A DNA stretch of 64,000 bases, taken from assembly GCA_007130605.1 (NCBI GenBank), contig SLSF01000032.1:3482-67481 (forward strand). The letters run 5' to 3'. Positions 4,175 to 37,860 of this stretch are shown in pieces. The notes beneath the pieces were generated by a model. The model saw only the letters and a program-made list of their open reading frames with translations, had not been told where the DNA came from and did no database searches. The translations under genes and the position numbers were made by a program. This DNA is from Gemmatimonadota bacterium (GTDB lineage Bacteria > Gemmatimonadota > Gemmatimonadetes > Longimicrobiales > Gaopeijiaceae). How positions within the stretch are numbered: the first letter of the stretch is position 1; each line of letters starts with the position of its first letter.

Positions 4175-5721
4175 CCGTGTGCCGAGTGGATCCACTCGAG
4201 AAGGAGGCGGGTGGGAAAGCCGAAGCCTCCCGTCCGCTGGTACGGGGCCCGCACTTCGCCGTACGCCGTTCCCGCGATGTCCAGGTGCGCCCAAGGCGTC
4301 TCCCCCACGAACTCCGAGAGGAAGAGGCCCGCGGTGATGGCACCTGCCGGACGGCCTCCCACATTCTTCAGGTCGGCCACCGGGCTGTCGAGCTGCTTCC
4401 GGTAGGCTTTCCAGAGGGGAAGGGGCCAGCAGCGCTCACCGGACCGGTCCCCCGCCTCGCGAAGCGCCTCCACCAGGTCGTCGTCGGAGCCGAGGACCGC
4501 GGCGGCATGGTGCCCGAGGGCCACCACGCACGCCCCCGTCAGGGTGGCACAGTCCACCATGGCCCGGGGTCCGTACTCGTCCACCGTGTAGGAGAGGGCA
4601 TCGGCCAGGATGAGACGACCCTCGGCGTCGGTGTTGATGACCTCCACCGTCTTGCCGGCCCGGGTCCGGATCACGTCGCCGGGCTTCGTCGCCCGGCCAT
4701 TGATCATGTTCTCGGAGGAGGGGACGACCCCCACCACATTCACCGGGGGGCGGATCATCCCGATGGCCTTCATGGCGCCCAGGACCGCCGCGCCCCCCGA
4801 CATGTCGAACTTCATGGACTCCATGCCCGACGGGGGCTTGAGCGAGATCCCCCCGGTGTCGAAAGTGAGCCCCTTCCCCACCAGTGCCAGGGGGGCCTCG
4901 TCCTCCCCTCCCCCGCGGTACTCCAGGATGATGAGACGGGGCTCCTCGTCGGAGCCCGCCGCCACCGAGAGGAGGGCGCCCATCCCCTCCTCCTCCATCT
5001 CGGCGGGGCCGAGGATCCGGACGTCGAGTCCCACCTCGGCGGCCAGCTCCCGGGCGATTCCGGCCAGGTGGGTCGGGGTCGCCACATTGCCCGGGCGGAA
5101 CTGGAGGACGCGGGCGAGGTTCTCGCCGGCACCATGGGCCTCTCCGATCCGAATCGCCTCCTCGACGATCTCTTCGGCAGGTGGGGAGCCGCCCTCGCCG
5201 GGATCCACCGAAAGGAGGCCCCGGGTCACCAGGGGCTTCGGTCCGTCGTCGGGATCGGGGTCCTTCAGCTCCCGGAAGTCGAAGGCGGCCAGGTGGAGCG
5301 CCTCGGCCCCGGCCTGCACTGCGGCCGCCGCGCCCCCCTCCTCGTGGGAGAGGGCGGGTACCACCAGGTGGACCGATGTGACGGAGAGCGCCTCGGCCCG
5401 GCGCACCACCCGTCCCGCGAGCTTCCGGACCGTCTCCCGGTCGAAGGATTCCGCCTTCCCCATCCCCACGAAGAGGACCCGACGAGGTCCGTCACCCGTG
5501 GTGTAGAAGAGGGCTTCCTCCTCCTCCTTCCCCCGGAAGTCTCCTGCCTCGAGAACCCGGGAGAAGGCTCCATCGACCCGGTCATCGAGACTCCGGGCCA
5601 CGGGAGAGAGGGTGTCGTCGTCCTGAAAGACCCCCACCGCCACCAGGGGCGCAGGTTCCTTCGCCGGCGTCCTGGAGGCCGGTCGAAGCTTCAGAAGCTT
5701 CTCAGTGCGGGTGCTCGTCAT
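4171..5721 (-). CDS. pepA: Leucyl aminopeptidase (M17)
   Basis: Contains VGKGLTFDTGGISLKP and the NTDAEGRLILADAL signature. Confidence 0.95.
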   Translation of the reverse strand: MTSTRTEKLLKLRPASRTPAKEPAPLVAVGVFQDDDTLSPVARSLDDRVDGAFSRVLEAGDFRGKEEEEALFYTTGDGPRRVLFVGMGKAESFDRETVRKLAGRVVRRAEALSVTSVHLVVPALSHEEGGAAAAVQAGAEALHLAAFDFRELKDPDPDDGPKPLVTRGLLSVDPGEGGSPPAEEIVEEAIRIGEAHGAGENLARVLQFRPGNVATPTHLAGIARELAAEVGLDVRILGPAEMEEEGMGALLSVAAGSDEEPRLIILEYRGGGEDEAPLALVGKGLTFDTGGISLKPPSGMESMKFDMSGGAAVLGAMKAIGMIRPPVNVVGVVPSSENMINGRATKPGDVIRTRAGKTVEVINTDAEGRLILADALSYTVDEYGPRAMVDCATLTGACVVALGHHAAAVLGSDDDLVEALREAGDRSGERCWPLPLWKAYRKQLDSPVADLKNVGGRPAGAITAGLFLSEFVGETPWAHLDIAGTAYGEVRAPYQRTGGFGFPTRLLLEWIHSAHG

Positions 5722-6016
5722 TCATCCTCCCCGTCGATCGATGCCCCCCGACGCCGGATGCGTCGGCAGGCGGCCTTCACCGTCGGAGCGAAAGCCTTCG
5801 AAATTAGAGGATTCCTTCGGTGGCGGGCAAGGTCGGGCGGGCCTTCCAACCCCATTACGTTGCCGTTGAAGAAGTACAGCGACCACCGGAACGGGGTCTT
5901 GCGTGCCCTGGAACGGGCCCGGGCACACCGCCGTCGGGTCGGGGTAGCGGCGGAGTGGGCCCCGTCGGTGCGCGACGGGAGCCCGCCACCATTGGAAGTG
6001 CGGAGGGACCGAAACG

Positions 6017-6769
6017 ATGAAGGGACCGGGGAGGGCGGACTGGACGGGAAGTCTCGAGGGCTGCGTCACCGTGGTGAGTGGGGGGTCGGGCGGCCTGGGG
6101 CGGGGCGTCGTCAAGCTCCTCCTGGAGGCGGGGGCCGAACTCCATCTCCCCATCTTCGATCCCGACGAGATCCCGGGACTGGAGGGGTATCTGGGCGATG
6201 CCTTCCATGGCCTGCAGCTCCATGAAGGGATCGACCTCACCGCGGCGGCGGAGGTCGACCGCCTCGTGGAACGGGTGACGGAGACGGGCAGTGGTGCACC
6301 GGAAGCGGTGGTGAATCTGGCCGGCGGATTCAGCATGTCGCCCGTCGAGGAGACGGACCCCCGGGTGTGGGAGCGCCTCTGGGCGATGAATGCCACCACC
6401 GCCTTCCTGCTGTCGCGGGCGGCCTTTCCGGCCATGAAGAGGGCCGGTCGCGGGCGGATCGTGAACATTTCTGCCCTCCCGGCCCTCGATGGCGGACAGT
6501 CCGGCCTCTCGGCGTACGGTGCCGCCAAGGCGGCGGTGCTCAATCTCACCCGCACCCTGTCGAAGGAGGGGGTCGAGGCGGGGATCACGGTGAACGCCGT
6601 GCTTCCCTCCATCATCGACACCCCCGGCAATCGGGAAGCCATGCCCGAGGCCGATACCTCCCGCTGGCTCGCCCCCGTGGAGATCGCCCGGGTGATCCGC
6701 TTCCTCCTCTCCGACGAGGGAGCCATCGTGAATGGCGCCGCCATCCCGCTCACCCTCGGATCTCCGTGA
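6017..6769 (+). CDS. Short-chain dehydrogenase/reductase (SDR) family oxidoreductase
   Basis: Has a VSGGSGGLGRGV Rossmann motif, the catalytic YGAAKAAV, and PSIIDTP. Confidence 0.85.
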   Translation: MKGPGRADWTGSLEGCVTVVSGGSGGLGRGVVKLLLEAGAELHLPIFDPDEIPGLEGYLGDAFHGLQLHEGIDLTAAAEVDRLVERVTETGSGAPEAVVNLAGGFSMSPVEETDPRVWERLWAMNATTAFLLSRAAFPAMKRAGRGRIVNISALPALDGGQSGLSAYGAAKAAVLNLTRTLSKEGVEAGITVNAVLPSIIDTPGNREAMPEADTSRWLAPVEIARVIRFLLSDEGAIVNGAAIPLTLGSP

Positions 6770-6903: not shown

Positions 6904-7977
6904 ATGTCTTTCCCCAACCCTCCTTCCCACCGACGGATCCGGAGCTCCGGGAGCCGGATCCCTGCGCTCCTCGCCGTGCTCGTCATCCTCCCCTTCCTCC
7001 TGGTGGCGTGCGGCGACGGAGACGGAGAGGTGGTGAATGTCTACAGCCACCGCCACTACGACACCGACGAGGCCCTCTTCGACCGCTTCACCGAGGAGAC
7101 CGGGATCCGGGTCCGGGTGGTGAGCGCGTCGGCGGACGAGCTCATGGCCCGGCTGGAGCGCGAGAGGGAGGCCTCTCCGGCCGATCTCCTCATCACGGTG
7201 GACGCGGGCAGGCTCCACCGTGCGGTGGAGCGGGGTCTCCTTCGTCCCATCGACTCACCCGTCCTGGCCGAGACGATCCCGGCCCATCTGAGGGACCCGG
7301 ACAACCACTGGTTCGGCCTCACCGTCCGGGCACGGATCCTCGCCTACGCCCGGGACCGGGTCGACCCCTCGGAGCTCTCCACCTACGAGGCGCTGGTGGA
7401 GCCGGAGTGGGAGGGCCGGATCCTCGTGCGGAGCTCGGAGAACATCTACAACATCTCGCACATGGCCTCCATCATCGCGGCCCTCGGTCTCGACGAGGCC
7501 GAGGAGTGGGCCCGTGGGCTGGTGGCGAATTTCGCCCGGTCCCCCCAGGGGAATGACACCGACCAGATCCGTGATGTGGCGGCGGGTGTCGGCGATGTGG
7601 CCCTGGTCAACTCCTACTATGTCGGGCGACTCCTCAACCACGAGGATCCGGACGCCCGGGCCCTGGGTGAAGCCATCGGGCTCTTCTTCCCCAACCAGGA
7701 CGACCGGGGCGTCCATGTCAATGTGAGTGGCGCCGGGGTCACTACCCACGCCCCCAATGCCGAGAACGCCGTGCGTCTCCTGGAGTTCCTGGTGGCAGAG
7801 GAGGCCCAGCGGGCCTTTGCCGAGGGGAACTTCGAGTACCCGGTGCGGGAGGGGGTCGACTGGTCGCCCACCCTTCAGTCGTGGGGAGACTTCGAGGCGG
7901 ACCGCCTCCCACTTTCCACCCTCGGTGAACTGAACAACGAGGCCGTCCAGATCTTCGACCGGGCCGGATGGCGCTGA
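6904..7977 (+). CDS. Fe(3+) ABC transporter substrate-binding protein (FbpA/AfuA-like lipoprotein)
   Basis: Has a lipobox (LLVACG), then VNVYSHRHYDTDEALFDRF...ADLLITVDAGRL and VALVNSYYVGRL, typical of ferric-iron binding proteins. Confidence 0.85.
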   Translation: MSFPNPPSHRRIRSSGSRIPALLAVLVILPFLLVACGDGDGEVVNVYSHRHYDTDEALFDRFTEETGIRVRVVSASADELMARLEREREASPADLLITVDAGRLHRAVERGLLRPIDSPVLAETIPAHLRDPDNHWFGLTVRARILAYARDRVDPSELSTYEALVEPEWEGRILVRSSENIYNISHMASIIAALGLDEAEEWARGLVANFARSPQGNDTDQIRDVAAGVGDVALVNSYYVGRLLNHEDPDARALGEAIGLFFPNQDDRGVHVNVSGAGVTTHAPNAENAVRLLEFLVAEEAQRAFAEGNFEYPVREGVDWSPTLQSWGDFEADRLPLSTLGELNNEAVQIFDRAGWR

Positions 7978-9647
7978 CCCCCCGCTGGAGCCAGCTTCTG
8001 GATCAACTCCGACCCCGCTGGCGGGTCACCCTCACCCCCTGGACGGTGGCGACGCTCATCGTCGTCGCCCTCGTCCTCCTTCCCATCGCCTCCATCCTCC
8101 TGGGGGTCCTGGCGGGAGGAAGCGAGACGTGGGACCACCTGGCCTCCACCGTTCTGGGGCTCTATGTCCGGAACTCGGTGATCCTCGTCTTCTGGGTCGG
8201 TGGCCTCACCCTCCTGGCGGGGGTGTCGACGGCGTGGCTGGTGAGCACCTGTCGCTTTCCAGGTCGATCGATCTTCGAATGGGCCCTGATCCTCCCCCTG
8301 GCGATTCCCACCTACATCATCGCCTTCACCTACGCCGAGATGCTCGGGCACACCGGGCCGGTACAGCAGCTTCTCCAACTGGTACTGGAGCCGAGCCAGA
8401 CCGCCCGCCTCCGCACCGGTCTCATGTCGGTGGGGGGCGCGGGGGTCATGATGGCCCTGGTGCTCTACCCCTACGTCTACCTCATCACCCGGACCTCCTT
8501 CCAGAAACAGTCCGGTGGGATCCTCGAGAGCTCCCGAATCCTGGGGAAGTCCCCCTGGCAGACCTTCTCCACCATCGCCCTCCCCATGGCCCGCCCTGCC
8601 CTGGTGGCGGGAGTCACCCTCGTCCTCATGGAGGTCCTGAACGAGTATGGCGCCGTCAGCTACTTCGGGGTCGCAACCTTCACCACCGGGATCTTCCGGG
8701 CGTGGTTCTCCCTCGGCGACGGGCCGGCGGCGATCCGCCTCTCGGCGTGCCTCCTGGTCCTGGTCTTCCTCCTCATCGTGGTGGAACGGGCCCAGCGGGG
8801 GCGGGCGCGCTTCGACAGCGGCTCCCGGACCTTCCGCCCGGTGGTCCCCTACGAGCTCGGCGGATGGAAGGCGGCAGGCGCCTTCCTGGTCTGCCTGATC
8901 CCCGTGGCTCTGGGCTTCGTCTTTCCGGTCCTCCAGCTCCTGGCCTGGGCCCTCCAGGTCTGGCCCGAGGCGATGGACCCCCGCTTTCTCACTCTGGCCC
9001 TGAACTCCTTCGGACTCGCCACCGCCTCGGCCTTCATCGCCGTGGCCGTGGCCGTGCTCATCGCCTTCTCGGTCCGCCTCACCCCGACCCCTCTCCTCAC
9101 CCTCTCCTCGAGGGCGGCGTCGCTGGGGTACAGCATTCCGGGCGCCGTCATCGCCGTGGGGGTGATGGTCCCCTTCCTCTGGGTCGATCGACAAATTGCA
9201 TCGACCGCGCGCGACCTCTTCGGGACCCCGCTGGGGCTGATCCTCACCGGGACGGTGGCGGCCCTGGTCTTCGCCTACGTGGTCCGCTTCCTCGCGGTGG
9301 CGCTGAACCCGGTGGACTCGGGGTTCACCCGGGTCTGTGGCAACCTGGACGAGACCTCCCGCTCCCTGGGCGCACCACCCATGAAGACCCTCCTCCGGGT
9401 CGACCTCCCCCTCCTCCGGGGCACCCTGGTCTCGGCGGGCCTTCTCGTCTTCGTCGATGTCCTGAAGGAACTCCCCCTGACCCTGATCCTCCGCCCCTTC
9501 GACTTCGACACCCTGGCGACCCGGGCATACCAGCTCGCCGCCGACGAGCAGCTTGCCCGCTCCGCTCTCCCGGCACTCCTCATCGTAGCGGTGGGGGTGA
9601 TTCCGGTCATCATGCTGAGCCGGATCATCGCACGACAGCGGGTGTAG
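7968..9647 (+). CDS. Iron ABC transporter permease (FbpB-like, duplicated 6-TM module)
   Basis: The 559-aa product is a polytopic protein with two BPD-transporter halves (EYGAVSYFG..., KELPLTLILRPF). It overlaps the binding-protein gene by 10 nt. Confidence 0.85.
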   Translation: MALTPRWSQLLDQLRPRWRVTLTPWTVATLIVVALVLLPIASILLGVLAGGSETWDHLASTVLGLYVRNSVILVFWVGGLTLLAGVSTAWLVSTCRFPGRSIFEWALILPLAIPTYIIAFTYAEMLGHTGPVQQLLQLVLEPSQTARLRTGLMSVGGAGVMMALVLYPYVYLITRTSFQKQSGGILESSRILGKSPWQTFSTIALPMARPALVAGVTLVLMEVLNEYGAVSYFGVATFTTGIFRAWFSLGDGPAAIRLSACLLVLVFLLIVVERAQRGRARFDSGSRTFRPVVPYELGGWKAAGAFLVCLIPVALGFVFPVLQLLAWALQVWPEAMDPRFLTLALNSFGLATASAFIAVAVAVLIAFSVRLTPTPLLTLSSRAASLGYSIPGAVIAVGVMVPFLWVDRQIASTARDLFGTPLGLILTGTVAALVFAYVVRFLAVALNPVDSGFTRVCGNLDETSRSLGAPPMKTLLRVDLPLLRGTLVSAGLLVFVDVLKELPLTLILRPFDFDTLATRAYQLAADEQLARSALPALLIVAVGVIPVIMLSRIIARQRV

Positions 9648-9860
9648 CGTTTCCGCTACAACCAGACATCGCTCGCCTCCGCCTCCGGCGCATGGGGACG
9701 GGATCCCGGGATCCTGGTGGCGTAAACGCTACACAGCCTCGCTCCCTCCCCCAGCCTCCCACCCATGGGGATCGACGTGCACCGATGGTTGTAGCGTATT
9801 CGCTACCACTTCATCGCGGCCCGCTCCCCCGTTACACTTGAATTGGGACGCAGCCCCGTA
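9643..9860. repeat. Tandem array of three ~74-bp units, each headed by an 18-bp TGTAGCG-N4-CGCTACA palindrome
   Basis: The palindromes are 9643-9660 TGTAGCG-TTTC-CGCTACA (it contains the fbpB TAG stop), 9716-9733 GGTGGCG-TAAA-CGCTACA (degenerate left arm) and 9790-9807 TGTAGCG-TATT-CGCTACC. The tails of units 1 and 2 share TCGCTC..CCTCC..CATGGGGA blocks. Confidence 0.8.
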
Positions 9861-16062: not shown

Positions 16063-16602
16063 ATGCTCTCCTCCACTGCTCGCTCCGCTGTGCTCCTCGG
16101 GCTCCTCTTCGTTCTCCCCGGGGGCCCAGCACCCCTCGCGGCCCAGGGAGCGCCGGAGGAGGGTTCGGGAGCCGGTCCCGGTCTCCACGGCGAGGTCGTG
16201 GCCGGACAGACCGCCATCACCGGTTCGGTACACCGCTTCGGCGGCGTCCACGCCTCCTTCACCGGCGAACGATGGGGCGCCGGGGCCCAGCTTCAGGTGG
16301 GGTCCGGGAGTGGATTCTCCTCCACCTACTTCACCGGGGGCCCCTCCATCCGGATCCCCATGCACCCCCGGGCGGACCTCCAGGTCATGGCGGGCTTCGG
16401 ATACTACGGTGAATCGGTGGATGCGTCGGGCCGCTCCGGCTCGGTGTTCGGTCCCGCGGCATCGGCCCTGGTGCGCATCCCCACCGGTCCCCTGCATGTA
16501 GCGGTTGGACTCACCGGGTGGTATGCCGAGTACACCGACGAGATCGCGGTGAACCCGGTTCCCGCCGATGGCCTTCGCTTCTTCATTGGAGTCGGTCGAT
16601 GA
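16063..16602 (+). CDS. Small secreted beta-rich protein (possible OM barrel), hypothetical
   Basis: Has a signal peptide (LLGLLFVLPGGPAPLAAQ), a Gly/aromatic-rich alternating sequence, and ends LRFFIGVGR. Its stop overlaps the next gene's start (ATGA). Confidence 0.5.
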   Translation: MLSSTARSAVLLGLLFVLPGGPAPLAAQGAPEEGSGAGPGLHGEVVAGQTAITGSVHRFGGVHASFTGERWGAGAQLQVGSGSGFSSTYFTGGPSIRIPMHPRADLQVMAGFGYYGESVDASGRSGSVFGPAASALVRIPTGPLHVAVGLTGWYAEYTDEIAVNPVPADGLRFFIGVGR

Positions 16603-20230: not shown

Positions 20231-20887
20231 ATGATCCCCGAGGGCGTGCTGGCCTTCGGCCTCCTCAGCCTGACCTCGCTCTTCGCCATCACGAATCCGC
20301 TCACCGCGGCTCCCATCTACCTGGCACTCACCGAGAGCCAGACCCCTGAGCACCGGTTGCGCACCCTCCGTACCGCCATCCTCACCGGAGCGGTGGTCCT
20401 GGTGGTCTTCACCCTCCTGGGTGGTGCCATCTTCCAGCTCTTCGGCATCACCATCGACGCCTTCCGCATTGCCGGGGGCATCATCATCTTCGGCATCGCC
20501 ATCGACATGCTCCAGGCCCGACGGTCCCGGGTGAAGAGCACCGAAGAGGAGGAAGAAGAGGGGATGGAGAAGGACGAGGTGGGAATCACCCCCCTCGGGA
20601 TCCCCATGTTCGTGGGGCCCGGCGCCATCACCACGGTCATGGTGTTGGCGGGGGACGCCGCGACTCTCCCCTTCGTGGCGGCCCTCTTCCTCTCCATCGG
20701 CATCGTCCTGGGAATCCTCTACCTGGTGCTCCGGGCCTCCCCCTACCTGACGGGACTCCTGGGCCAGACCGGAGTCAATGTCCTGACCCGGATCATGGGA
20801 CTCCTCCTGGCGGTGATCGCCGTCCAGTTCATCATCGATGGTGTTCGCGCCGTCGCCCTCGACGTGCTCCGGACCGCCGGGAGCTGA
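20231..20887 (+). CDS. MarC family (UPF0056) inner-membrane protein
   Basis: Has six hydrophobic segments and the N-terminal FAITNPLTAAPIYLALT motif characteristic of MarC/YhgN. Confidence 0.85.
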   Translation: MIPEGVLAFGLLSLTSLFAITNPLTAAPIYLALTESQTPEHRLRTLRTAILTGAVVLVVFTLLGGAIFQLFGITIDAFRIAGGIIIFGIAIDMLQARRSRVKSTEEEEEEGMEKDEVGITPLGIPMFVGPGAITTVMVLAGDAATLPFVAALFLSIGIVLGILYLVLRASPYLTGLLGQTGVNVLTRIMGLLLAVIAVQFIIDGVRAVALDVLRTAGS

Positions 20888-21145
20888 GCCCGCGCACCTC
20901 ACCTGACCCAGGGAATCAGATCGGCGGCTGTAGCGTAAACGGGCTCCTTTTCCTCTTCTGCGTGGGTGCGGGGTTCAGGATCGCGTTCGGTTCACCAGAG
21001 TCCCGAATGGTTGGCGGGATCACCAGCACCCGACCCTCCGCAGGGGAGGGGAGGGCGGATGACTGGAGGGCTGAAGGGAACCCTGACTCCACACCGGACG
21101 ACTCGTTTCTCAACGCTTGCGCTCTGCGTCACCGCAGAGACCGCA

Positions 21146-21188
21146 AAGTCCACAACCGTCGATTCTCGCGAGCGACGGTTGTGGACTT
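21146..21188. repeat. Perfect 16-bp inverted repeat (hairpin or protein-binding site)
   Basis: The repeat is AAGTCCACAACCGTCG-attctcgcgag-CGACGGTTGTGGACTT. A smaller hairpin, CTCTGC-gtcacc-GCAGAG, precedes it at about 21122-21140. No U-tract follows. Confidence 0.7.
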
Positions 21189-21251
21189 CGTCTCCCATAG
21201 GGAGCGTTTTGGTGCCAACGTCGTGCGAGTCCCCCTCGAGTGTGGAGTCTT

Positions 21252-21370
21252 GGTTCCGATTTGGGGCTTCGGTTCCGAAGTGGGGTCGATTCGAAGGGGG
21301 AGGTCTGGTTTCGGTGTGGGGCACCGTTCCGTGTTGCGGCTTCGACTCCGAAGTGGGGTCCCGACTCCGA
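21252..21370. repeat. Four copies of a GGTTYCGR-N2-TGGGGY-like motif, including a 32-bp direct repeat at a 73-bp offset
   Basis: The copies are at 21252-21267, 21271-21287, 21307-21322 and 21344-21360. The longer repeat GGCTTCGGTTCCGAAGTGGGGTCGATTCGAAG (21265-21296) matches GGCTTCGACTCCGAAGTGGGGTCCCGACTCCGA (21338-21370). Confidence 0.65.
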
Positions 21371-21462
21371 CCCGGTCGATCTCCCCCGGTGACGGTCCCG
21401 GGGCAGGTGGAATCGATGCGGGTGGACGAAAAAGCTGAAAACGCCGCGCTTTCGAAGGCACT

Positions 21463-21600
21463 TTCCGGATCTTCGTTGATATTCGCAGAGAATCCGGATT
21501 GGGCGGCGGCGGCGCGAGGGCCCGTTCCGGATTTTCGTCGGTATTCGCATAGAATCCGGAATGCGCCGGCTTTTTTGTCGCGTTTTCAGGATTTTCGTCC
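21463..21600. repeat. About 2.5 direct repeats (60-62 bp period) of a hairpin module
   Basis: TTCCGGATCTTCGTTGATATTCGCAGAGAATCCGGATTG lies at 21463-21501 (7-bp stem TCCGGAT/ATCCGGA). TTCCGGATTTTCGTCGGTATTCGCATAGAATCCGGAATG lies at 21525-21563 (9-bp stem). A partial copy, TTCAGGATTTTCGTCC, lies at 21585-21600. A T6 run is at 21571-21576. Confidence 0.7.
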
Positions 21601-21637
21601 CCGGAGCGAAGGCTGCGGCCGGGCCCCGGAGGGTGAT

Positions 21638-21770
21638 TGTAGCGGATACGCTACATGGCCCCGCCCCCCATACCATCCTTCAGCTCATCGGCACAGAATC
21701 CTGCAGTCATTGTAGCGAATACGCTACGTTCGAGGGTATAGATGAAGATGATTGTAGCGCAAACGCTACA
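21638..21770. repeat. Three more TGTAGCG-N4-CGCTACA palindromes inside the insertion
   Basis: They are 21638-21655 TGTAGCG-GATA-CGCTACA, 21711-21728 TGTAGCG-AATA-CGCTACG, and 21753-21770 TGTAGCG-CAAA-CGCTACA. The last has arms extendable to 9 bp (ATTGTAGCG/CGCTACAAT). Confidence 0.8.
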
Positions 21771-21901
21771 ATCTCCATATTTGCCCTCCGTGGCCTGCGG
21801 CGTTCCGGGGTAGAGCCAATGCGGTATGGGAAAAGAGCCCGTAAACGCCACACTCCTACACGGTCCCCGGTATTCAGGATCGTTCTGGAGGGCCGTGAAG
21901 G

Positions 21902-22678
21902 TCAGAGCGACCGGAAGGCGATCCGCCTCGGCACCCGGTCCCACGCCACCGCCATGGCCACCCCGGCCTCCGGATCCCGCTCCCCTTCCCCACTCTCCCG
22001 CCGGCTCCCGGACCGATCCCCCGATGCCCCCGGATCGTCCTCCCCGGACAACGACGCGACCCACCACCCCTCCACCGGTCCCTCGCCCACCTCCGGATCG
22101 AGGCGGCGGAGCGCATTGCCTCCCATGGGCGAGAGTCGGACCGCGAAGGCGGTGAGAGGAATGGCGAGTCCGCCTCCCACCGCCTTGATGAAGGCCTCCT
22201 TGCGGGTCCATCCCCGGAAGAAGGCGCCGACCCGGGCCCCGGAGGGGAGTGCCAGGAGCTCGGCAACCTCCTCTTCGGCGAAGGTGCGGCGGGCGAGGGC
22301 CTCCAGGTCCGGAAAGCCCCGCGCCTCCTCCAGGTCCACCCCTAGACGTCCCTCGGCGGCGACTCCCACCAGGAGGTGCTCCCCCGAGTGGGAGAGGTTG
22401 AAGCTCGGCGCCCCGGGCTCCGCCAGGTACGGCTTTCCGCCCGGTTCACGCTCGAAGCGGAGGACGCCGGGGGCCCGGTCCATGAGGGTGCCGAGAATCC
22501 GCCGGAGCGTGCCCCACCCCACGATGTGGCGGCGGCGGAGGTGATCGAAGCGAAAGCGATCCGCCCGCTCCCGCTCCTCGGCGGAAAGGGTCTCCTCTAA
22601 AGCGCGCACCACGCCACCGGGGGGATCGAGTCGCCCCCTGAGCAGGTGGATCGTTCCGGTTTCGAGGGTCTTCAGCAC
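21902..22678 (-). CDS. 4'-phosphopantetheinyl transferase (Sfp-type)
   Basis: Contains FNLSHSGEHLLVGVA, GVDLE and FFRGWTRKEAFIKAVGGGL, the PPTase motifs. Confidence 0.85.
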   Translation of the reverse strand: MLKTLETGTIHLLRGRLDPPGGVVRALEETLSAEERERADRFRFDHLRRRHIVGWGTLRRILGTLMDRAPGVLRFEREPGGKPYLAEPGAPSFNLSHSGEHLLVGVAAEGRLGVDLEEARGFPDLEALARRTFAEEEVAELLALPSGARVGAFFRGWTRKEAFIKAVGGGLAIPLTAFAVRLSPMGGNALRRLDPEVGEGPVEGWWVASLSGEDDPGASGDRSGSRRESGEGERDPEAGVAMAVAWDRVPRRIAFRSL

Positions 22679-22800
22679 CCGCCACTCCTCCGCAAGGCTT
22701 CGGGATCGGGGGCTCCCGGCGGCGGTGGCCCCTCGCCTTCTTCAGCGGACTTCCAGAAGGATGTTGAAGGTACCCCACGGGGATGCCGGCGTCACCCCGG

Positions 22801-22829
22801 TTGATTTCGGTTTTTCTTCGGTTTATCAT
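22801..22829 (+). promoter_or_regulatory. Sigma-70-like promoter predicting a leaderless mRNA for the ImuB-like gene
   Basis: TTGATT (22801-22806), a 17-nt spacer and TATCAT (22824-22829) are present. The ATG at 22837 lies 7-8 nt downstream of the -10 element. This is the only AT-rich stretch in the divergent intergenic region. Confidence 0.35.
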
Positions 22830-22836
22830 CGAAGGC

Positions 22837-24117
22837 ATGACGACCTCGCGCACCGCTCTCTGTCTCTGGCTCCCCACCTTCGAGCTCCGGCTCGAACTGG
22901 TGCGTTCGCCCGAACTCGACGCCACTTCGGTCGCCCTTCTCCGTGCCGGAGAGGGGGCCGCGGGCCGGGGAGAGGTCCACCAGGTCTCCGAGCGGGCGGC
23001 GGCGGCCGGGGTCCGTCCGGGGATGCGAGTCTCGCAGGCGATCTCCCTCTGTCCGTCCCTCACCCTTCTCGAGCCCGACCCGGCCCACTACGGGGCCGCC
23101 ATGGAGGAGATCCTGGGGTGCCTCGGAGAGGTGAGCCCGATCCTCGAACCGGTGGAGCCGGGCATGATCCAGGTGGGGATGGATGGGATGGAGCGCCTCT
23201 ACGGTTCGCCGGCCGACCAGGTGACCCGGGTCCTGAAGAGCCTCCTCCACCTCCTTCCCCGTCCCCTTGTGGCTGCCATGCGAGTGGGACGAGCGCCGGG
23301 GACCTTCGCCGCCCGGGTCGCCGCGGTCTCCGCCCGCCCGGGCGCCCCCGTCCTCGTCGACGAGGGCGAGCTCCTCTCCTTTCTGGAGGACCAGCCGGTG
23401 GAGACACTTCCCCTCCCCCGGGAGGCCATCGAACAGCTCCACCGCCTCGAGATCCGGACCCTGGGGACGCTGGGACACCTTCCCCTCCCGGCACTCCTCC
23501 GGCACTTCGGGAGCGCCGGGCGCGAGGCCCGGGCGCTGGCCCGGGGAGAGCGGATCGAGCCAGTCCGGGCCCGGCACCGTCCCCGCCCCCTCCGGGCCTC
23601 CCTGGATCTTCCCACCGCCATCGGCGAACGACACGCGCTCCACCGGGCCCTGGACCGGGTCCTGGACCGACTCCTGGCCCACCCGCAGCGAAAGGATCGG
23701 GCGCTGAAGGGCCTCCGGGTGGGAGGACATCTCGAGGAGGGAGGGTCCTGGCAGATCGAGGTCACCCTGCGGGACGCCGCCGCACGGCGGGAGCCCCTCG
23801 CCTTTCCCATCCGGAGCCGGATCGCGCTCCACCCTCCGCCCCGGGCGCTGGAGAGTCTCTTCGTCGAGGCCTTCGACTTCGGGGCGCCGGTGACCCAGGG
23901 GTCGCTCTTCGAGCGAAGTGAAGCCGGGGCGAGAGAGCGGGTGGATCCCGGAAGTGACCCCCTCACCACCGGTCCGGTGGGCCGGGCACTCCGCCAGGCG
24001 GTGCGGGAACTCCACCTCCGGCTGGGCCACGCTCCCCTCTACCGGGTGGTGGAGGTGGACCCCTGGTCGCGGATCCCCGAGCGCCGGCACGCTCTTCTTT
24101 CCCTGGACGACCGTTGA
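22837..24117 (+). CDS. imuB: ImuB-like Y-family DNA polymerase homologue (catalytically inactive type)
   Basis: The N-terminus reads MTTSRTALCLWLPTFELRLE, whereas active Y-family enzymes carry DxDxFxxxxE. The palm/finger-like region follows (GVRPGMRVSQAISLCPSL...HYGAAMEEILGCLGEVSPILEP...). An alternative upstream ATG is at 22783. Confidence 0.7.
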   Translation: MTTSRTALCLWLPTFELRLELVRSPELDATSVALLRAGEGAAGRGEVHQVSERAAAAGVRPGMRVSQAISLCPSLTLLEPDPAHYGAAMEEILGCLGEVSPILEPVEPGMIQVGMDGMERLYGSPADQVTRVLKSLLHLLPRPLVAAMRVGRAPGTFAARVAAVSARPGAPVLVDEGELLSFLEDQPVETLPLPREAIEQLHRLEIRTLGTLGHLPLPALLRHFGSAGREARALARGERIEPVRARHRPRPLRASLDLPTAIGERHALHRALDRVLDRLLAHPQRKDRALKGLRVGGHLEEGGSWQIEVTLRDAAARREPLAFPIRSRIALHPPPRALESLFVEAFDFGAPVTQGSLFERSEAGARERVDPGSDPLTTGPVGRALRQAVRELHLRLGHAPLYRVVEVDPWSRIPERRHALLSLDDR

Positions 24118-34404: not shown

Positions 34405-37400
34405 TCAAGCTGTACCTCCATCGGACTCATCTACCTCCACCTCCACCGTCCCGATCACCTCACCCTCATCGTCCTCGCCCAGGTAGGCCGTGATCTCCGC
34501 CACTCCCGGCTCGGTGGCCGTGAGGGTCGACTCGAAGGCACCGTCCTCCGTCGTGCCCCCTTCCGGCTCCAGCACCCCATGGGTCGTCTCGAGCCAGATC
34601 GGCTCTCCATCCAGGTCCAGGAGGTTGCCCGCCGCGTCCCTCAGTTCCACCCGGATCGTCGCGCTCTCGTCGGTGGTGATGGTCTCCGGGGTCGCCTCCA
34701 CCGTCGATTCATCGGCATCGGCCTCGCCTCCGGTCACGACCACCTGCACCGTCCCGATCACCTCGCCCTCATCGTCTTCGCCCAGGTAGGCCGTGATCAC
34801 TGCTGACCCCGTCTCACTGGCCGTAAAGGTGGATTCGAAGACCCCATCTTCCGTCGTGCCTCCCTGCGGATCCAACTCTCCACTCGCCATCTCGAGCCAG
34901 ATCGCCTCGCCCGTCAGGTCCAGTGCGTTCCCGGACGCGTCCCTGAGCTGCACCCGGATCGTCGCGCTCTCGTCGGTGGTGATCCTGTCCGGGGTCGCCT
35001 CCACTGTCGACCCGCCGGCATCCAGCTCGCCCACCGTCACCTCCACTTCCACCGTTCCGATCACATCGTCTTCATCGTCTTCGCCCAGGCGCGCCGTGAT
35101 CTCCGCTACCCCCGGCTCGCTGGCTGTGAAGGTCGATTCAAGCACCCCCTCTTCTGTCGTGTCCCTCTGCGGGTCCAGCTCTCCGTGCGTCGTCTCGAGC
35201 CAGATCGTGTCTCCGGTCAGGTTCAACGGATTGCCCGAGGCGTCCCGGAGTTCCACTCGGATCGTCGCACTCTCGTCCGTTGTGATGGTGTCCGGAGTGA
35301 CCTCCACCGTCGACTCGCCGGCATCGGGTGCGCCCGCCGTCACCTCTATCGTCACCGTCCCGATCACCTCACCCGTGTCATCTTCGCCCAGGTACGCCGT
35401 CACCTCGGCCGTCCCGGGCTCGCTCGCCGTCAGGACCGACTCGAAGGCGCCATCCTCCGTCGTCCCTCCCTGCGGGTCCAGCGCGCCATGGGTCGTCTCG
35501 AGCCAGATCTGCTCCCCGGTCGTATCCAGCGCATTGCCCGAGGCGTCCCGCAGCTCCACCCGCACCGTCGAACTCTCCCCGATGCTGATCGTCTCCGGCG
35601 CCGCCTCCACCGTCGACTCCCCGGCATCGGGTGCGCCCGCCGTCACCTCTATCGTCACCGTCCCGATCACCTCACCCGTGTCATCTTCGCCCAGGTACGC
35701 CGTCACCTCGGCCGTCCCGGGCTCGGTGGAAGTGAACACACTCCGGAGGGTGCCATCGCTCTCGGTCTCGCCGGCGGCGGGATCGAGTTCCCCAAGCGTC
35801 GTCGCAAGGAAGACCGCATCTCCGCCCGAGTCGATGGGATTCCCCGTTGGATCGAAGAGACGGACAGTGACCTCGGCTGAGCCGTCGATGCTGATGGAAG
35901 TCGGCTCCACCGTCACCTCGGAGGTCTCCGGATCGGGCGCGCCAGTGACAAAGGCCACGGTGGCCCCATCGCGGATGGTTTCCCCGTTCAGGGTTCCGGT
36001 AATCTCTGCCGTCTCCACATCGGTGCTGGAGGTCAGCGTGGCGATGAAGCGACCGTCTCCACCGGTGCTCACATCGGAGAGACTCCCCGCGGTGGTTTCC
36101 AACTCCACCTCGTGCGTGCCCGTCTCCGCCACATTCCCGAACCGGTCGAGGAGCTGAACCGTAACGGTTGAAGTGCTGGAGCCATCGGCGGTGATCCGGG
36201 TGGGAGAGGCCTGGATCGTTGTGGTTTCCACGGAGGGCGCTCCGGGCACGAAGGTCACCGACGTCGAATCGGCGAGGGGCTCGCCCCGAAGCGAGGCGGT
36301 GACCTCGGCGGTCCCGACCGAGGTGGGCGCGGTAAGAATTGCACGGTATTCCCCACCTCCCAGGTCCGAGACTGGGGAGAGGGTCCCGGCACTCGCCTGG
36401 ATCTCCACCTCGTCACCACCCGCGGGGATGCGCTCACCCCGGGCGTCTCTCAGGATCACCGTGATGACCGACTCCGACTCCCCGTCGGCAGTGATCTCGG
36501 CCGGCGCCACCTGGAGTTCCGACTGCCCGGGCACGGGCCGAGGACTCACCGACAGGACCAGGTCGATGGAGACGGGAGAGTTGATGGCGTCGGGTGATGA
36601 GAGCTCCCACCGGGCCAGATGGTTTCCGGGGAGGAGGCCCGGATCATCGAAAATGAAGCCCACCTCGGTGGGCGCATTGGAAGAGGCGAGGACCGCCTCG
36701 ACCCATCCCTCGCTTCCGCCGGAGGCCCACACGAGAGATCCGGTCAGATCGCCAAGGGTCCCTCCCCCCGCATTCTCCACCGCCACGGTCACCGACGAGG
36801 GCACACTCCCTCCCTCCTCCATGGACCGCTGGATCAATTCGGTGCCCACCACGATCTGCGGAGGGGTTTCCCCGAGGCGGAAACGGACGGCCACCACGGC
36901 GGAGGTCCCGGGCGCCGACGCGCTCGAAAGGTGAACCTCCGCCTCATGCACACCCACCTCGAGTCCATCGGAGTCGACCTGGAGCAGGAGGGTCGTCGGC
37001 GCCGAGTCGTCTTCGAGGTCCACCTGCAGCCACTCCACCTCGTTTCCAGCATCGTAGTGGATCTCGGCGGCCAGCCCGGTCAGGGTCCCGCCCCCCTCAT
37101 TGGTGACCTGGACGGTCTCGGGGGCCGGGGCCTCCTCCTCTTCGGACGCGGCGAAGCCCACCGCTTCCGGAGTCACAGCGAGTACCGGGGGCGAAGCATC
37201 CACCTCGAGGGTCACCTGGAGGGTGGCCGGCGCGTCCGGCAACTGGCTCGAGGCCACGGATACGGTGGCACCGTACGTCCCGGGCTGGAGATCCGTCGGA
37301 TCGGCCACCAGGGTCAGAACCGAGGGAACCGAGGTGGAGGAGAGGCTCCAGTCGAGCCAGTCCCCACCGCCTGGAGCATCGTACTCCACCTCCACCTCCA

Positions 37401-37860
37401 GGCCACCGATTTCCCCCCCGCCCTCATTCACGATCTCCACCTGGGCCAGGCCACTCCCGGAGGCACCACCGAAGTGAAGGTCGGAGGTGGACAGCCCCAG
37501 CGCCGGAGGAGAATCCACCACCACCGTGGCCACCCCACTCGCATTGCCGGTGGAGGCCCGAATCTCCGCGCTCCCGGGCCCCAGGGCCACTGCCATCCCA
37601 GTGGAATCGACGGACACGACTCCCGGTGCGTTGGAGCTCCATGCGATGTCCCGCCCTCCGAGAATCCCCCCCTCCGCATCGACGGGGGTCGCAGAAAAGT
37701 GGATCTCTTCGTCGGGGAGGAGACGGACGTCGTTCGGCTCCACCATCACCGATTCCACCTGGACGGTGACCACGGTCACATCTTCACAGCCCCCCAGGAA
37801 GAGGAGGAGACACGCCGCCAGGGCGGTGCGGAGACGGAGAGGGTGGAGAACGGGCATCAT
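34405..37860 (-). CDS. Giant surface lipoprotein: Big_2 domain, about 4 BACON-like modules and 8 Big_1-type Ig repeats
   Basis: Has a lipobox (LLLFLGGCEDVTV) and a Big_2 domain (VRLLPDEEIHFSATPVDAEGG...VVSVDSTGMAVALGPGSAEIRA). The modules carry NEGGGxLxGL...WL...L..G.Y. Eight tandem repeats of about 90-101 aa follow (TITTDESATIRVELRDASGNxLDLTGExIWLETTHGxLDP...). Confidence 0.85.
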   Translation of the reverse strand: MMPVLHPLRLRTALAACLLLFLGGCEDVTVVTVQVESVMVEPNDVRLLPDEEIHFSATPVDAEGGILGGRDIAWSSNAPGVVSVDSTGMAVALGPGSAEIRASTGNASGVATVVVDSPPALGLSTSDLHFGGASGSGLAQVEIVNEGGGEIGGLEVEVEYDAPGGGDWLDWSLSSTSVPSVLTLVADPTDLQPGTYGATVSVASSQLPDAPATLQVTLEVDASPPVLAVTPEAVGFAASEEEEAPAPETVQVTNEGGGTLTGLAAEIHYDAGNEVEWLQVDLEDDSAPTTLLLQVDSDGLEVGVHEAEVHLSSASAPGTSAVVAVRFRLGETPPQIVVGTELIQRSMEEGGSVPSSVTVAVENAGGGTLGDLTGSLVWASGGSEGWVEAVLASSNAPTEVGFIFDDPGLLPGNHLARWELSSPDAINSPVSIDLVLSVSPRPVPGQSELQVAPAEITADGESESVITVILRDARGERIPAGGDEVEIQASAGTLSPVSDLGGGEYRAILTAPTSVGTAEVTASLRGEPLADSTSVTFVPGAPSVETTTIQASPTRITADGSSTSTVTVQLLDRFGNVAETGTHEVELETTAGSLSDVSTGGDGRFIATLTSSTDVETAEITGTLNGETIRDGATVAFVTGAPDPETSEVTVEPTSISIDGSAEVTVRLFDPTGNPIDSGGDAVFLATTLGELDPAAGETESDGTLRSVFTSTEPGTAEVTAYLGEDDTGEVIGTVTIEVTAGAPDAGESTVEAAPETISIGESSTVRVELRDASGNALDTTGEQIWLETTHGALDPQGGTTEDGAFESVLTASEPGTAEVTAYLGEDDTGEVIGTVTIEVTAGAPDAGESTVEVTPDTITTDESATIRVELRDASGNPLNLTGDTIWLETTHGELDPQRDTTEEGVLESTFTASEPGVAEITARLGEDDEDDVIGTVEVEVTVGELDAGGSTVEATPDRITTDESATIRVQLRDASGNALDLTGEAIWLEMASGELDPQGGTTEDGVFESTFTASETGSAVITAYLGEDDEGEVIGTVQVVVTGGEADADESTVEATPETITTDESATIRVELRDAAGNLLDLDGEPIWLETTHGVLEPEGGTTEDGAFESTLTATEPGVAEITAYLGEDDEGEVIGTVEVEVDESDGGTA
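34420..36530 (-). repeat. In-frame tandem coding repeats (about 270-303 bp units) encoding Ig-like domains
   Basis: There are eight consecutive repeat units. The DNA at 35301-35422 and 35604-35725 is identical at 121 of 122 positions, with an offset of exactly 303 bp. Confidence 0.85.

What the first reader, a model, noticed from the sequence alone, without database searches (positions are those of the whole stretch)
20929..21853. 900-bp ORF-less insertion with inverted termini and a GTAAAC duplication splits a REP-like palindrome between two convergent genes
marC (+, ends 20887) and the PPTase gene (-, ends 21902) converge, yet they are separated by 1014 bp. That is very long for a 3'-3' spacer in a genome this compact. 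The left junction reads TGTAGCG-TAAAC|GGGCTCCTTTTCC and the right junction reads GGGAAAAGAGCCC|GTAAAC-GCCACA. So the termini are inverted (12 matches and one indel over 13 nt) and are flanked by a direct GTAAAC repeat. Deleting 20941-21846 in silico rebuilds TGTAGCG-TAAA-CGCCACA, a near-perfect member of the palindrome family seen elsewhere in the window. This is the signature of a transposition event into the loop or arm of a REP-like hairpin. However, the 900 bp contain no transposase or recombinase ORF and no ORF with the local GC3 bias. The element is either a large non-autonomous (MITE-like) element mobilised in trans, a fully decayed IS, or a carrier of non-coding RNA cargo.
Basis: seen in the sequence. 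Interest (0 to 1): 0.75.

Follow-up and report, generated by a model that had tools for sequence, protein, structure and literature searches.

The report
ORF-less composite repeat element splitting a REP
The 1-kb gap between two converging genes holds a non-coding, hairpin-rich repeat element that sister lineages lack and that has at least one more copy elsewhere in the same uncultured soda-lake bacterium, so it is selfish or mosaic repeat DNA of a broadly known kind, not a gene.

Summary
marC (20231-20887, +) and the PPTase gene (21902-22678, -) are 1014 bp apart. That stretch is the only long part of the window with no codon-position GC signal. It is bounded by TGTAGCG-TAAAC|GGGCTCCTTTTCC and GGGAAAAGAGCCC|GTAAAC-GCCACA, with a joint chance probability of about 3e-9.

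- It is an insertion. In the two nearest relatives the genes overlap by 17 bp or are about 53 bp apart.
- It belongs to a repeat family. A second copy lies between DUF3108 and gdh in the same five metagenomes. It shares the left terminus, a 125-nt left arm and a 187-nt structured module A at 81-83% identity.
- It is not a uniform 900-bp unit. The right halves of the two copies are unrelated. Copy 2 shows no significant right inverted terminus and no duplication.
- The interior is a mosaic of separately recurring modules. These are three GTAG-type REP hairpins, 61-73-nt repeat arrays whose copy number varies between strains, and module A, which also occurs alone beside a decayed IS3.
- No transposase remnant, Rfam family or codon signal was found.

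The host is an uncultured Gemmatimonadales from soda-lake or soda-soil metagenomes. Verdict: a new member of a known kind (non-autonomous, mosaic intergenic repeats that use REPs as targets). Interest is moderate to low.

The parts
20231..20887 (+). marC / NAAT-family transporter gene (left neighbour)
   Evidence: PF01914. GC3 is 0.89.
20929..20935 (+). Left arm (TGTAGCG) of the split GTAG-type REP palindrome. Homology with copy 2 starts exactly here.
   Evidence: Copy 2 has TGTAGTG at the same 5-nt distance from GGGCTC.
20935..20940 (+). Left copy of the GTAAAC direct repeat (putative target duplication). GTAAACG, 7 nt, is also possible.
20941..20953 (+). Left inverted terminus GGGCTCCTTTTCC
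   Evidence: (I2).
20941..21052 (+). Left arm, conserved in copy 2 (about 81-85% identity)
   Evidence: window 20929-21062 aligns with L043 10869-10740 at 81.3%.
21072..21258 (+). Module A. A 187-nt multi-hairpin unit with its own 18-nt inverted ends (21077-21094 / 21240-21257) and a perfect 16-bp hairpin at 21146-21188.
   Evidence: 82.5% identical to copy 2 and 70% to L045, where it stands alone. The consensus fold has 6 compensatory pairs. The covariance model scores 215 bits here and finds only the three known loci.
21253..21360 (+). Two 35-nt direct repeats at 73-nt spacing. Absent from copy 2.
   Evidence: (D4).
21424..21600 (+). Module B. About three ~61-nt units bounded by a 21-nt inverted repeat (GGACGAAAAAGCTGAAAACGC / GCGTTTTCAGGATTTTCGTCC).
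   Evidence: I3, D1, D5. A homologous array lies at a different position in copy 2, with 1 to 3 units depending on strain.
21638..21655 (.). GTAG-type REP palindrome 1 (TGTAGCG GATA CGCTACA)
21711..21728 (.). GTAG-type REP palindrome 2 (TGTAGCG AATA CGCTACG). The loop carries a strain SNP at 21720.
21753..21770 (.). GTAG-type REP palindrome 3 (TGTAGCG CAAA CGCTACA)
21828..21840 (-). Right inverted terminus GGGAAAAGAGCCC
21841..21846 (+). Right copy of the GTAAAC direct repeat
21846..21852 (+). Right arm (CGCCACA) of the split REP palindrome
   Evidence: One mismatch to CGCTACA. On the minus strand the mismatch is a G-T wobble.
21902..22678 (-). 4'-phosphopantetheinyl transferase gene (right neighbour)
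   Evidence: PF22624 and PF01648. 60% identical to the L011 orthologue.
9643..9807 (.). The other REP cluster in the window. Three palindromes at 73/74-nt spacing in the 3' untranslated region of an ABC permease gene. The first supplies that gene's TAG stop.

Best explanation
The spacer holds one copy of an ORF-less, non-autonomous composite repeat element. It belongs to a small family in an uncultured soda-lake Gemmatimonadales species.

Shown:
- It is absent from the same site in the nearest relatives.
- It is non-coding.
- A second copy sits in an unrelated locus of the same organism or population. The two share a precise left boundary, a left arm and module A.
- Its interior is built from hairpin modules that recur independently: GTAG-type REPs, a 61-nt hairpin unit that forms arrays, and the 187-nt module A.
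- The arrays gain and lose whole units between strains.

Inferred:
- The window copy arrived by a cut-and-staggered-join transposition, catalysed in trans. The insertion went into the loop and 3'-arm boundary of a pre-existing REP hairpin in a roughly 108-bp spacer.
- This left 13-nt inverted termini and a 6-7-bp GTAAAC(G) duplication.
- Interiors then diverged through tandem-repeat slippage or recombination and through nested gain or loss of modules. That would explain why only about 310 nt remain alignable between copies.
- No host function is required. Likely side effects are transcript 3'-end hairpins and insulation between the two converging genes.
For: - Junction signature with a joint chance of about 3e-9.
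- Relatives have a spacer of 0 to about 53 bp: L011 (marC 77% identical, full synteny TetR...marC-PPTase-IMS-...) and L015 (85%).
- All 10 contigs of the same species (99.6-99.9% identical) carry the element.
- No codon periodicity. No Pfam hit in any of six frames. Mismatches between the copies show no 3-nt phase.
- Copy 2 was found through a spurious ORF. It occurs in the same five samples as the window locus.
- Homology starts exactly at TGTAG. The 5 nt between the half-palindrome and GGGCTC differ at 3 of 5 positions, while the surroundings are about 85% identical. This is what insertion into different REPs with variable loops would give.
- Module B lies at different positions in the two copies. 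Module A stands alone in L045.
- Strain spacer lengths at copy 2 are 906, 1021 and 1090 bp. The differences are whole 61- and 69-nt units between direct repeats.
- REPs as preferred targets of insertion sequences: PMC1525189.
- GTAG-tagged REPs, including ones that supply TAG stop codons: PMC3733652, matching 9645-9647.
Against: - Copy 2 has no significant right terminus, no duplication and no partner half-palindrome.
- The duplication reading differs from a 25-nt terminal inverted repeat by only two bases.
- Three intact REPs of the target type lie inside the window copy.
- No cognate transposase or RAYT was seen in the window or in the loci fetched. The only transposase nearby, in L045, is a decayed IS3 without matching ends.
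- Only two full copies and one solo module are known. Genome-wide copy number could not be measured, because the public collections that could be scanned lack the source samples.
- 900 bp is large for a MITE.
Confidence: 0.5

Rival explanations
1. In-situ mosaic, like a BIME or the mosaic intergenic regions of Neisseria. On this reading the 1 kb was never one mobile unit. It grew in place by successive small insertions (REPs, the 61-nt hairpin, module A, a short outer MITE) and by tandem duplication. The two loci resemble each other because the same small modules colonise many intergenic regions.
For: - The modules recur independently and in different orders.
- Only about 310 nt is shared between the copies, and the right halves are unrelated.
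- Strain-level copy-number changes of 61- and 69-nt units are directly observed.
- REP spacing is regular, at 73/74/73 nt.
- A 39-nt stretch of copy 2 also occurs in another intergenic region of the window.
Against: - The left arm and module A are adjacent, in the same orientation and with the same junction sequence in both loci. At least that 310-nt block therefore moved as one piece.
- The outer termini and duplication enclose the whole 900 bp.
Confidence: 0.3
2. A family of long non-coding RNA genes. It would have a conserved 5' core of about 310 nt (left arm plus module A), a variable tail, and REP hairpins acting as 3' stabilisers or terminators.
For: - The window copy folds far better than shuffles (z = -14.2 on the plus strand, -8.7 on the minus strand).
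- Module A keeps a multi-helix fold, with 6 pairs changed on both sides across three loci.
- In both copies the left end follows a plus-strand gene.
Against: - No Rfam family matches at E <= 1 in any of the three loci.
- Copy 2 as a whole is not more structured than shuffles (z = -1.26).
- The gain over shuffles is the same on both strands (-77 and -84 kcal/mol). The structure is therefore DNA-level inverted repeats.
- No promoter-like site was found.
- The sequence is absent from relatives.
- Module A also sits inside a decayed IS3.
Confidence: 0.1
3. A fully decayed insertion sequence whose transposase gene has eroded beyond recognition.
For: Inverted termini and a duplication. The size is close to that of the smallest insertion sequences.
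Against: - No Pfam match in six frames, even at E <= 1.
- No residual codon-position GC signal.
- The interior consists of short repeats and hairpins, not unique sequence.
- The copies are only 18% diverged in the shared part, yet their right halves are entirely unrelated.
Confidence: 0.06

Closest known systems
REP-targeting insertion sequences (ISPpu9, ISPpu10, ISPa11, ISPsy8, ISRm19, ISRm22; Tobes and Pareja 2006, PMC1525189). IS1397 and ISKpn1 are added from my own knowledge.
   Same: A mobile element sits inside a repetitive extragenic palindrome, with the two half-palindromes left on either side.
   Different: Those are autonomous insertion sequences that encode a transposase. This element has no ORF and a mosaic interior. 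Its REP targeting is seen cleanly at only one of two copies.
MITEs (Correia/NEMIS, RUP, ERIC, Nezha, as listed in PMC3733652)
   Same: Non-coding, with terminal inverted repeats, a flanking duplication and strong secondary structure, placed next to gene ends. Presumed to be mobilised in trans.
   Different: MITEs are 70-300 bp and fairly uniform. This element is 900 bp and composite. The second copy shares only the left third.
BIMEs of enterobacteria and the mosaic intergenic repeat regions of Neisseria (PMC2817692, PMC3733652)
   Same: Regularly spaced REPs are interleaved with other short conserved motifs in long intergenic regions.
   Different: The host is a different phylum and the motif set is different. 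Here outer inverted termini and a duplication bracket the whole mosaic.
GTAG-tagged REP superfamily (Di Nocera et al. 2013, PMC3733652)
   Same: The 18-nt palindromes begin with (T)GTAG, are extragenic and clustered, tolerate G-T in the stem, and one supplies a TAG stop codon.
   Different: The GTAG is part of a symmetric 7-bp stem with a 4-nt loop. Genome-wide abundance and an associated RAYT could not be checked. Gemmatimonadota are not mentioned in that paper.
REPINs (Bertels and Rainey 2011, PMC3116915)
   Same: Module B reduces in one strain to a single 61-nt hairpin with 24-nt arms. This is REPIN-like in form.
   Different: It has no GTAG head, and no RAYT link is shown. It is amplified in tandem rather than dispersed, as far as the data go.

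Membership tests
MITE / non-autonomous TIR transposon | Terminal inverted repeats | tested here: inconclusive
   The window copy matches 11/13 ungapped or 12/13 with one indel. Copy 2 has the same left terminus but no significant right terminus.
MITE / non-autonomous TIR transposon | Target-site duplication flanking each copy, different at each site | tested here: inconclusive
   GTAAAC matches 6/6 at the window copy. No convincing duplication at copy 2. The N5 next to the left terminus differs between copies (TAAAC against ATAGC), as different targets would give.
MITE / non-autonomous TIR transposon | Several dispersed copies in one genome | tested here: inconclusive
   Two copies plus one solo module A, all in the same metagenomes. 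The complete genome was not available.
MITE / non-autonomous TIR transposon | No transposase ORF | tested here: met
MITE / non-autonomous TIR transposon | Small uniform size (about 70-300 bp, at most about 600) | tested here: not met
   The window copy is 900 bp. Copy 2 spans about 0.9-1.09 kb with variable content.
MITE / non-autonomous TIR transposon | Cognate autonomous element with the same termini | not testable with these tools
   None in the 64-kb window or the loci fetched. The rest of the genome could not be reached.
GTAG-type REP (the 18-nt palindromes) | Short imperfect palindrome of 20-40 bp with GTAG at one end | tested here: met
   TGTAGCG-N4-CGCTACA occurs 6 times against 0.03 expected. 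Three more occur at copy 2.
GTAG-type REP (the 18-nt palindromes) | High copy number across the genome | not testable with these tools
   Only clusters in 2 of the window's intergenic regions and 1 in L043 were seen. The genome-contig scan returned no Gemmatimonadota.
GTAG-type REP (the 18-nt palindromes) | Extragenic, often at gene 3' ends, sometimes providing TAG | tested here: met
   PMC3733652 describes this trait.
GTAG-type REP (the 18-nt palindromes) | Associated RAYT (Y1 transposase) gene | not tested
   No PF01797-type gene appears among the Pfam tables seen. Not all window ORFs and no other contigs were scanned.
Insertion sequence (decayed) | Recognisable transposase remnant | tested here: not met
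   Six-frame Pfam scan at E <= 1 found nothing relevant. No periodicity.
IS200/IS605-derived PATE or REPIN (HUH/Y1-mobilised) | No inverted termini and no duplication, subterminal hairpins at both ends, and a constant target tetranucleotide on the left flank | tested here: not met
   Inverted termini and a duplication are present at the window copy. The left-flank 4-mers differ (AAAC against TAGC). REP hairpins occur only near the right end.
Any curated RNA family (Rfam 15) | Covariance-model match | tested here: not met
   Only chance-level miRNA or snoRNA hits at E = 0.7-0.9.

The most novel reading that the evidence does not exclude
The element could be a vehicle that spreads REP clusters. 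On this reading it is a ~1-kb ORF-less mobile unit with a conserved ~310-nt structured left end (left arm plus module A) that acts as the cis site. It homes into REP hairpins and carries its own triplet of the same REPs as cargo. That would give a mechanism for seeding BIME-like clusters at new loci, driven by a REP-recognising enzyme not yet identified in Gemmatimonadota.
Probability: 0.1. Interest if true: 0.6.

Novelty: new member of a known kind. Interest (0 to 1): 0.33.

Why it matters
It adds a repeat system to a phylum (Gemmatimonadota) where I know of no described REP, MITE or mosaic repeats, and the GTAG-REP survey I consulted does not mention the phylum. The system comprises GTAG-type REPs, a 61-nt hairpin minisatellite and a 187-nt structured module. 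The finding gives one clean example of a non-coding element splitting a REP hairpin. It also shows that gene callers turn these regions into spurious 'hypothetical proteins' (P0121, P0122, P0124), which is useful for annotation hygiene. The strain-variable 61-69-nt arrays could serve as strain markers in soda-lake metagenomes. None of this overturns current understanding.

Tried and rejected
1. Rfam scans of all three loci found nothing.
2. Six-frame Pfam scan for a pseudogene found nothing. A tblastn of the extra 313-aa gene of relative L011 against the window gave no match in the spacer.
3. blastn in distant mode against plasmids and phages gave no match.
4. I used the translation of the spurious ORF 20966-21712 as a probe in genome contigs and metagenome contigs, and a module A DNA pattern in metagenome contigs and viral contigs. 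All were empty. These negatives are uninformative. The same module A pattern matches L043 and L045 among the loci held, so the collections do not contain the source samples.
5. The same ORF against the 5.8-billion-protein index returned only itself.
6. A concatenated six-frame query failed its own positive control and is discarded.
7. The REP-pair pattern in genome contigs gave 27 loci, mostly Bacteroidota, Planctomycetota and others, and no Gemmatimonadota. This shows the core motif is a widespread GTAG-REP form. It did not yield more of this genome.
8. A covariance model of module A, searched over 149 kb of held sequence, found no further copy.
9. I looked for inverted ends of the L045 IS3 that match the element's termini and found none.
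10. oriC or an iteron origin was considered. I rejected it because the cumulative GC skew shows no switch and the sequence is absent from relatives.
11. A CRISPR array was considered because of the 73-nt period. I rejected it because the loops and flanks of the palindromes differ between units.
12. A group II intron and an integron attC site were considered. I rejected them because there are no Rfam hits, and GTAAAC does not fit the attC core consensus as I recall it.
I worked around this through the listing of cluster members.
Full report
**Observation.**
- marC (20231-20887, +) and a 4'-phosphopantetheinyl transferase gene (21902-22678, -) converge across 1014 bp.
- The left junction reads TGTAGCG (20929-20935), then TAAAC, then GGGCTCCTTTTCC (20941-20953).
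- The right junction reads GGGAAAAGAGCCC (21828-21840), then GTAAAC (21841-21846), then GCCACA.
- The termini match 11/13 without a gap, or 12/13 with one indel.
- Removing 20941-21846 gives TGTAGCGTAAACGCCACA. This is one arm base away from TGTAGCG-N4-CGCTACA, which occurs six times in the window against 0.03 expected.
- Under a first-order Markov model of the spacer, GTAAAC followed by a REP arm turns up in 1.5e-4 of simulated spacers. A neighbouring 13-mer within two substitutions of the terminus complement has probability 1.75e-5. The signature is not chance.
- Codon-position GC shows no periodicity across 20900-21900 (spread at most 0.15), against 0.3-0.48 in both flanking genes. The other apparent gaps in the window are coding. 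This is therefore the one long non-coding stretch in 64 kb.

There are two caveats. The palindrome family is seen in only two clusters of three, and one cluster (21638, 21711, 21753) lies inside the 900 bp. GTAAAC and its reverse complement differ only at the two central bases, so 'duplication plus 13-nt termini' and 'one 25-nt imperfect terminal inverted repeat' (I2) differ by two nucleotides.

**Origin and relatives.** An identical MarC protein is encoded on contigs from soda-lake and soda-soil metagenomes and on two MAGs, GCA_003556885.1 and GCA_007120735.1. The nearest named relatives are Gemmatimonadales.
- All ten contigs of the same species are 99.6-99.9% identical over the region and all carry the spacer.
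- The closest syntenic relative is L011 (GCA_007692605.1, MarC 77%, PPTase 60%), with the same TetR...marC-PPTase-IMS-pterin dehydratase-glycosyltransferase order. There, marC and the PPTase gene overlap by 17 bp.
- In a closer relative, L015 (MarC 85%), the PPTase C-terminus begins about 53 bp after the marC stop.
- By parsimony, the roughly 0.9-1.0 kb was gained in the window lineage.
- No relative shows an intact 18-bp palindrome at the site, so a textbook empty site was not recovered.

**What the 900 bp contains.** It is a nest of inverted and direct repeats.
- A 112-nt left arm.
- Module A (21072-21258). It has 18-nt inverted ends and a perfect 16-bp hairpin at 21146-21188.
- Two 35-nt repeats 73 nt apart.
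- Module B (21424-21600). It has about three ~61-nt units closed by a 21-nt inverted repeat.
- Three REP palindromes.
- About 57 unique bases.
- The right terminus.

As RNA it folds far below shuffled controls (z = -14.2 on the plus strand, -8.7 on the minus strand). The gain over shuffles is the same on both strands, which fits DNA-level palindromes. Rfam gives nothing. Six-frame Pfam gives nothing. No sigma-70-like promoter is found. Plasmid and phage collections give no match.

**The palindromes are GTAG-type REPs.**
- They carry the (T)GTAG head.
- They cluster at regular 73/74-nt spacing in 3' regions.
- They tolerate G-T in the stem.
- The copy at 9643 supplies the TAG stop of the upstream ABC permease gene. 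Di Nocera et al. describe this trait for GTAG REPs (PMC3733652).
- A genome-collection scan for pairs of GTAGCG-N4-CGCTAC returned 27 loci. These came from Bacteroidota, Planctomycetota, Verrucomicrobiota and others, often several per genome. The core is therefore a recurrent REP form, not something special to this locus.

**A second copy.** Scoring the translation of a spurious minus-strand ORF (21113-21676) against 1.84 billion representative proteins returned two other spurious 'proteins'.

P0122 lies in a 0.9-1.09-kb non-coding spacer between DUF3108 and gdh (L043/L044, L048-L052). It occurs in the same five samples that hold the window locus.
- Window 20929-21062 aligns with this copy at 81%, and 21053-21235 (module A) at 82.5%.
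- Homology begins exactly at TGTAG. The window has TGTAGCG-TAAAC-GGGCTCC and copy 2 has TGTAGTG-ATAGC-GGGCTC.
- The flanks are unrelated.
- The five bases between the half-palindrome and the terminus differ at three positions, in an otherwise ~85% identical stretch. Insertion into different REPs with different loops would produce this.

The resemblance ends to the right of module A.
- Copy 2 has a module-B-type array between the left arm and module A, not downstream as in the window.
- It has a different set of 61-69-nt repeats.
- It has its own three REPs.
- It has no significant counterpart of the right terminus (p = 0.19 and 0.86) and no outer inverted repeat.
- I could not find a duplication or a partner half-palindrome.
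- Copy 2 as a whole is not unusually structured (z = -1.26).
- Mismatches between the copies show no 3-nt phase.

P0124 marks a third locus (L045-L047). There, module A alone (70% identity) abuts a 5'-truncated IS3-type orfA (HTH_Tnp_1 positions 24-72) and an rve orfB. That IS3 has no ends matching the element.

Module A keeps a multi-helix fold across the three loci, with six pairs changed on both sides. A covariance model built from it finds only these loci in the 149 kb of sequence held.

**Turnover seen directly.** The DUF3108-gdh spacer is 906, 1021 or 1090 bp long in different samples. The alignment shows that the differences are whole repeat units bounded by direct repeats. Two 61-nt module B units are missing in L048, which leaves a single 61-nt hairpin with 24-nt arms. 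A 61-nt unit is missing in L048 and a 69-nt unit in L050 from the other array. This is tandem-repeat expansion and contraction, not transposon excision.

**Interpretation.** The data fit best a non-autonomous composite repeat element. The window copy was inserted in or at a REP hairpin by a staggered-cut transposition, which gave the inverted termini and the 6-7-bp duplication. Interiors were later remodelled by repeat slippage and by nested gain or loss of modules. I put this at about 0.5.

- The main rival (about 0.3) is that the kilobase accreted in place from independently mobile small modules. Against it, the left arm and module A are joined identically in both loci, and the outer signature brackets the whole stretch.
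- A long ncRNA gene family (about 0.1) is weakened by the absence from relatives, the lack of structure in copy 2, equal structure on both strands, and module A sitting in a dead IS.
- A decayed IS (about 0.06) lacks any coding trace.

There is another copy and there are sites without the insertion, but termini and duplication are not reproduced at that copy.

**Limits.** Genome-wide copy number, a cognate transposase or RAYT, and transcription could not be tested. The scannable public collections do not contain the source samples. This was shown by a pattern that matches L043 and L045 among the held loci but gave nothing in metagenome contigs. The empty scans therefore carry no weight. The six-frame protein query failed its positive control.

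**Verdict.** This is a real, lineage-specific, ORF-less repeat element of a known general kind (MITE or mosaic intergenic repeats, with REPs as insertion targets; PMC1525189), in a phylum where I am not aware of any such repeats having been described. Interest is moderate to low. It is a new member of a known kind.

Noticed in passing
window 9643-9660: The first REP of the other cluster overlaps the end of the ABC permease gene 7968-9647 and supplies its TAG stop codon. This trait is reported for GTAG-type REPs.
   Followed up: partly
window 34433-35735: Five tandem 303-nt repeats (78-85% identical) lie inside the 1151-aa minus-strand ORF 34405-37860. This is probably a repeated-domain surface protein.
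   Followed up: no
window 5865-5903: A 39-nt stretch in the intergenic region 5721-6017 is 82% identical to the sequence just right of module A in copy 2 (L043). It is another short module shared between intergenic regions.
   Followed up: partly
L016-L042 (for example L038, L026 and L024 from Saprospiraceae JADJWN01; L031 7545-7720): Hairpins of the form GTAGCG-N4-CGCTAC, with longer family-specific stems, are multi-copy in many Bacteroidota and other MAGs. L031 holds six perfect 32-nt tandem units containing this hairpin.
   Followed up: partly
window 20991 and 21006 (ends of L007 and L009): Two Logan contigs of the same species stop 50-65 nt inside the left arm. This may mark an assembly-graph branch caused by closer copies elsewhere or by strain variation (there is a SNP at 20984).
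   Followed up: no
L048, L049 and L050, 1560-2500: The length of the second copy varies between strains (906, 1021 and 1090 bp) through gain or loss of whole 61- and 69-nt units. This is a possible strain marker.
   Followed up: yes
L045 3228-4690: A decayed IS3-family element (5'-truncated orfA, short rve orfB) has module A directly upstream. Gene callers fused module A and orfA into one 260-aa 'protein' (P0124).
   Followed up: partly
window 16063-16602: A 6-bp indel between strain groups gives products of 179 or 181 aa in a hypothetical gene.
   Followed up: no
window 21059-21715 (+): Several public annotations call a 218-aa 'hypothetical protein' (P0121) inside the non-coding element. It has no codon signal and no homologue apart from itself.
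   Followed up: yes
window 22783-24117: A Y-family polymerase (IMS, ImuB-like) gene lies divergent from the PPTase gene. The order is conserved in relative L011.
   Followed up: no
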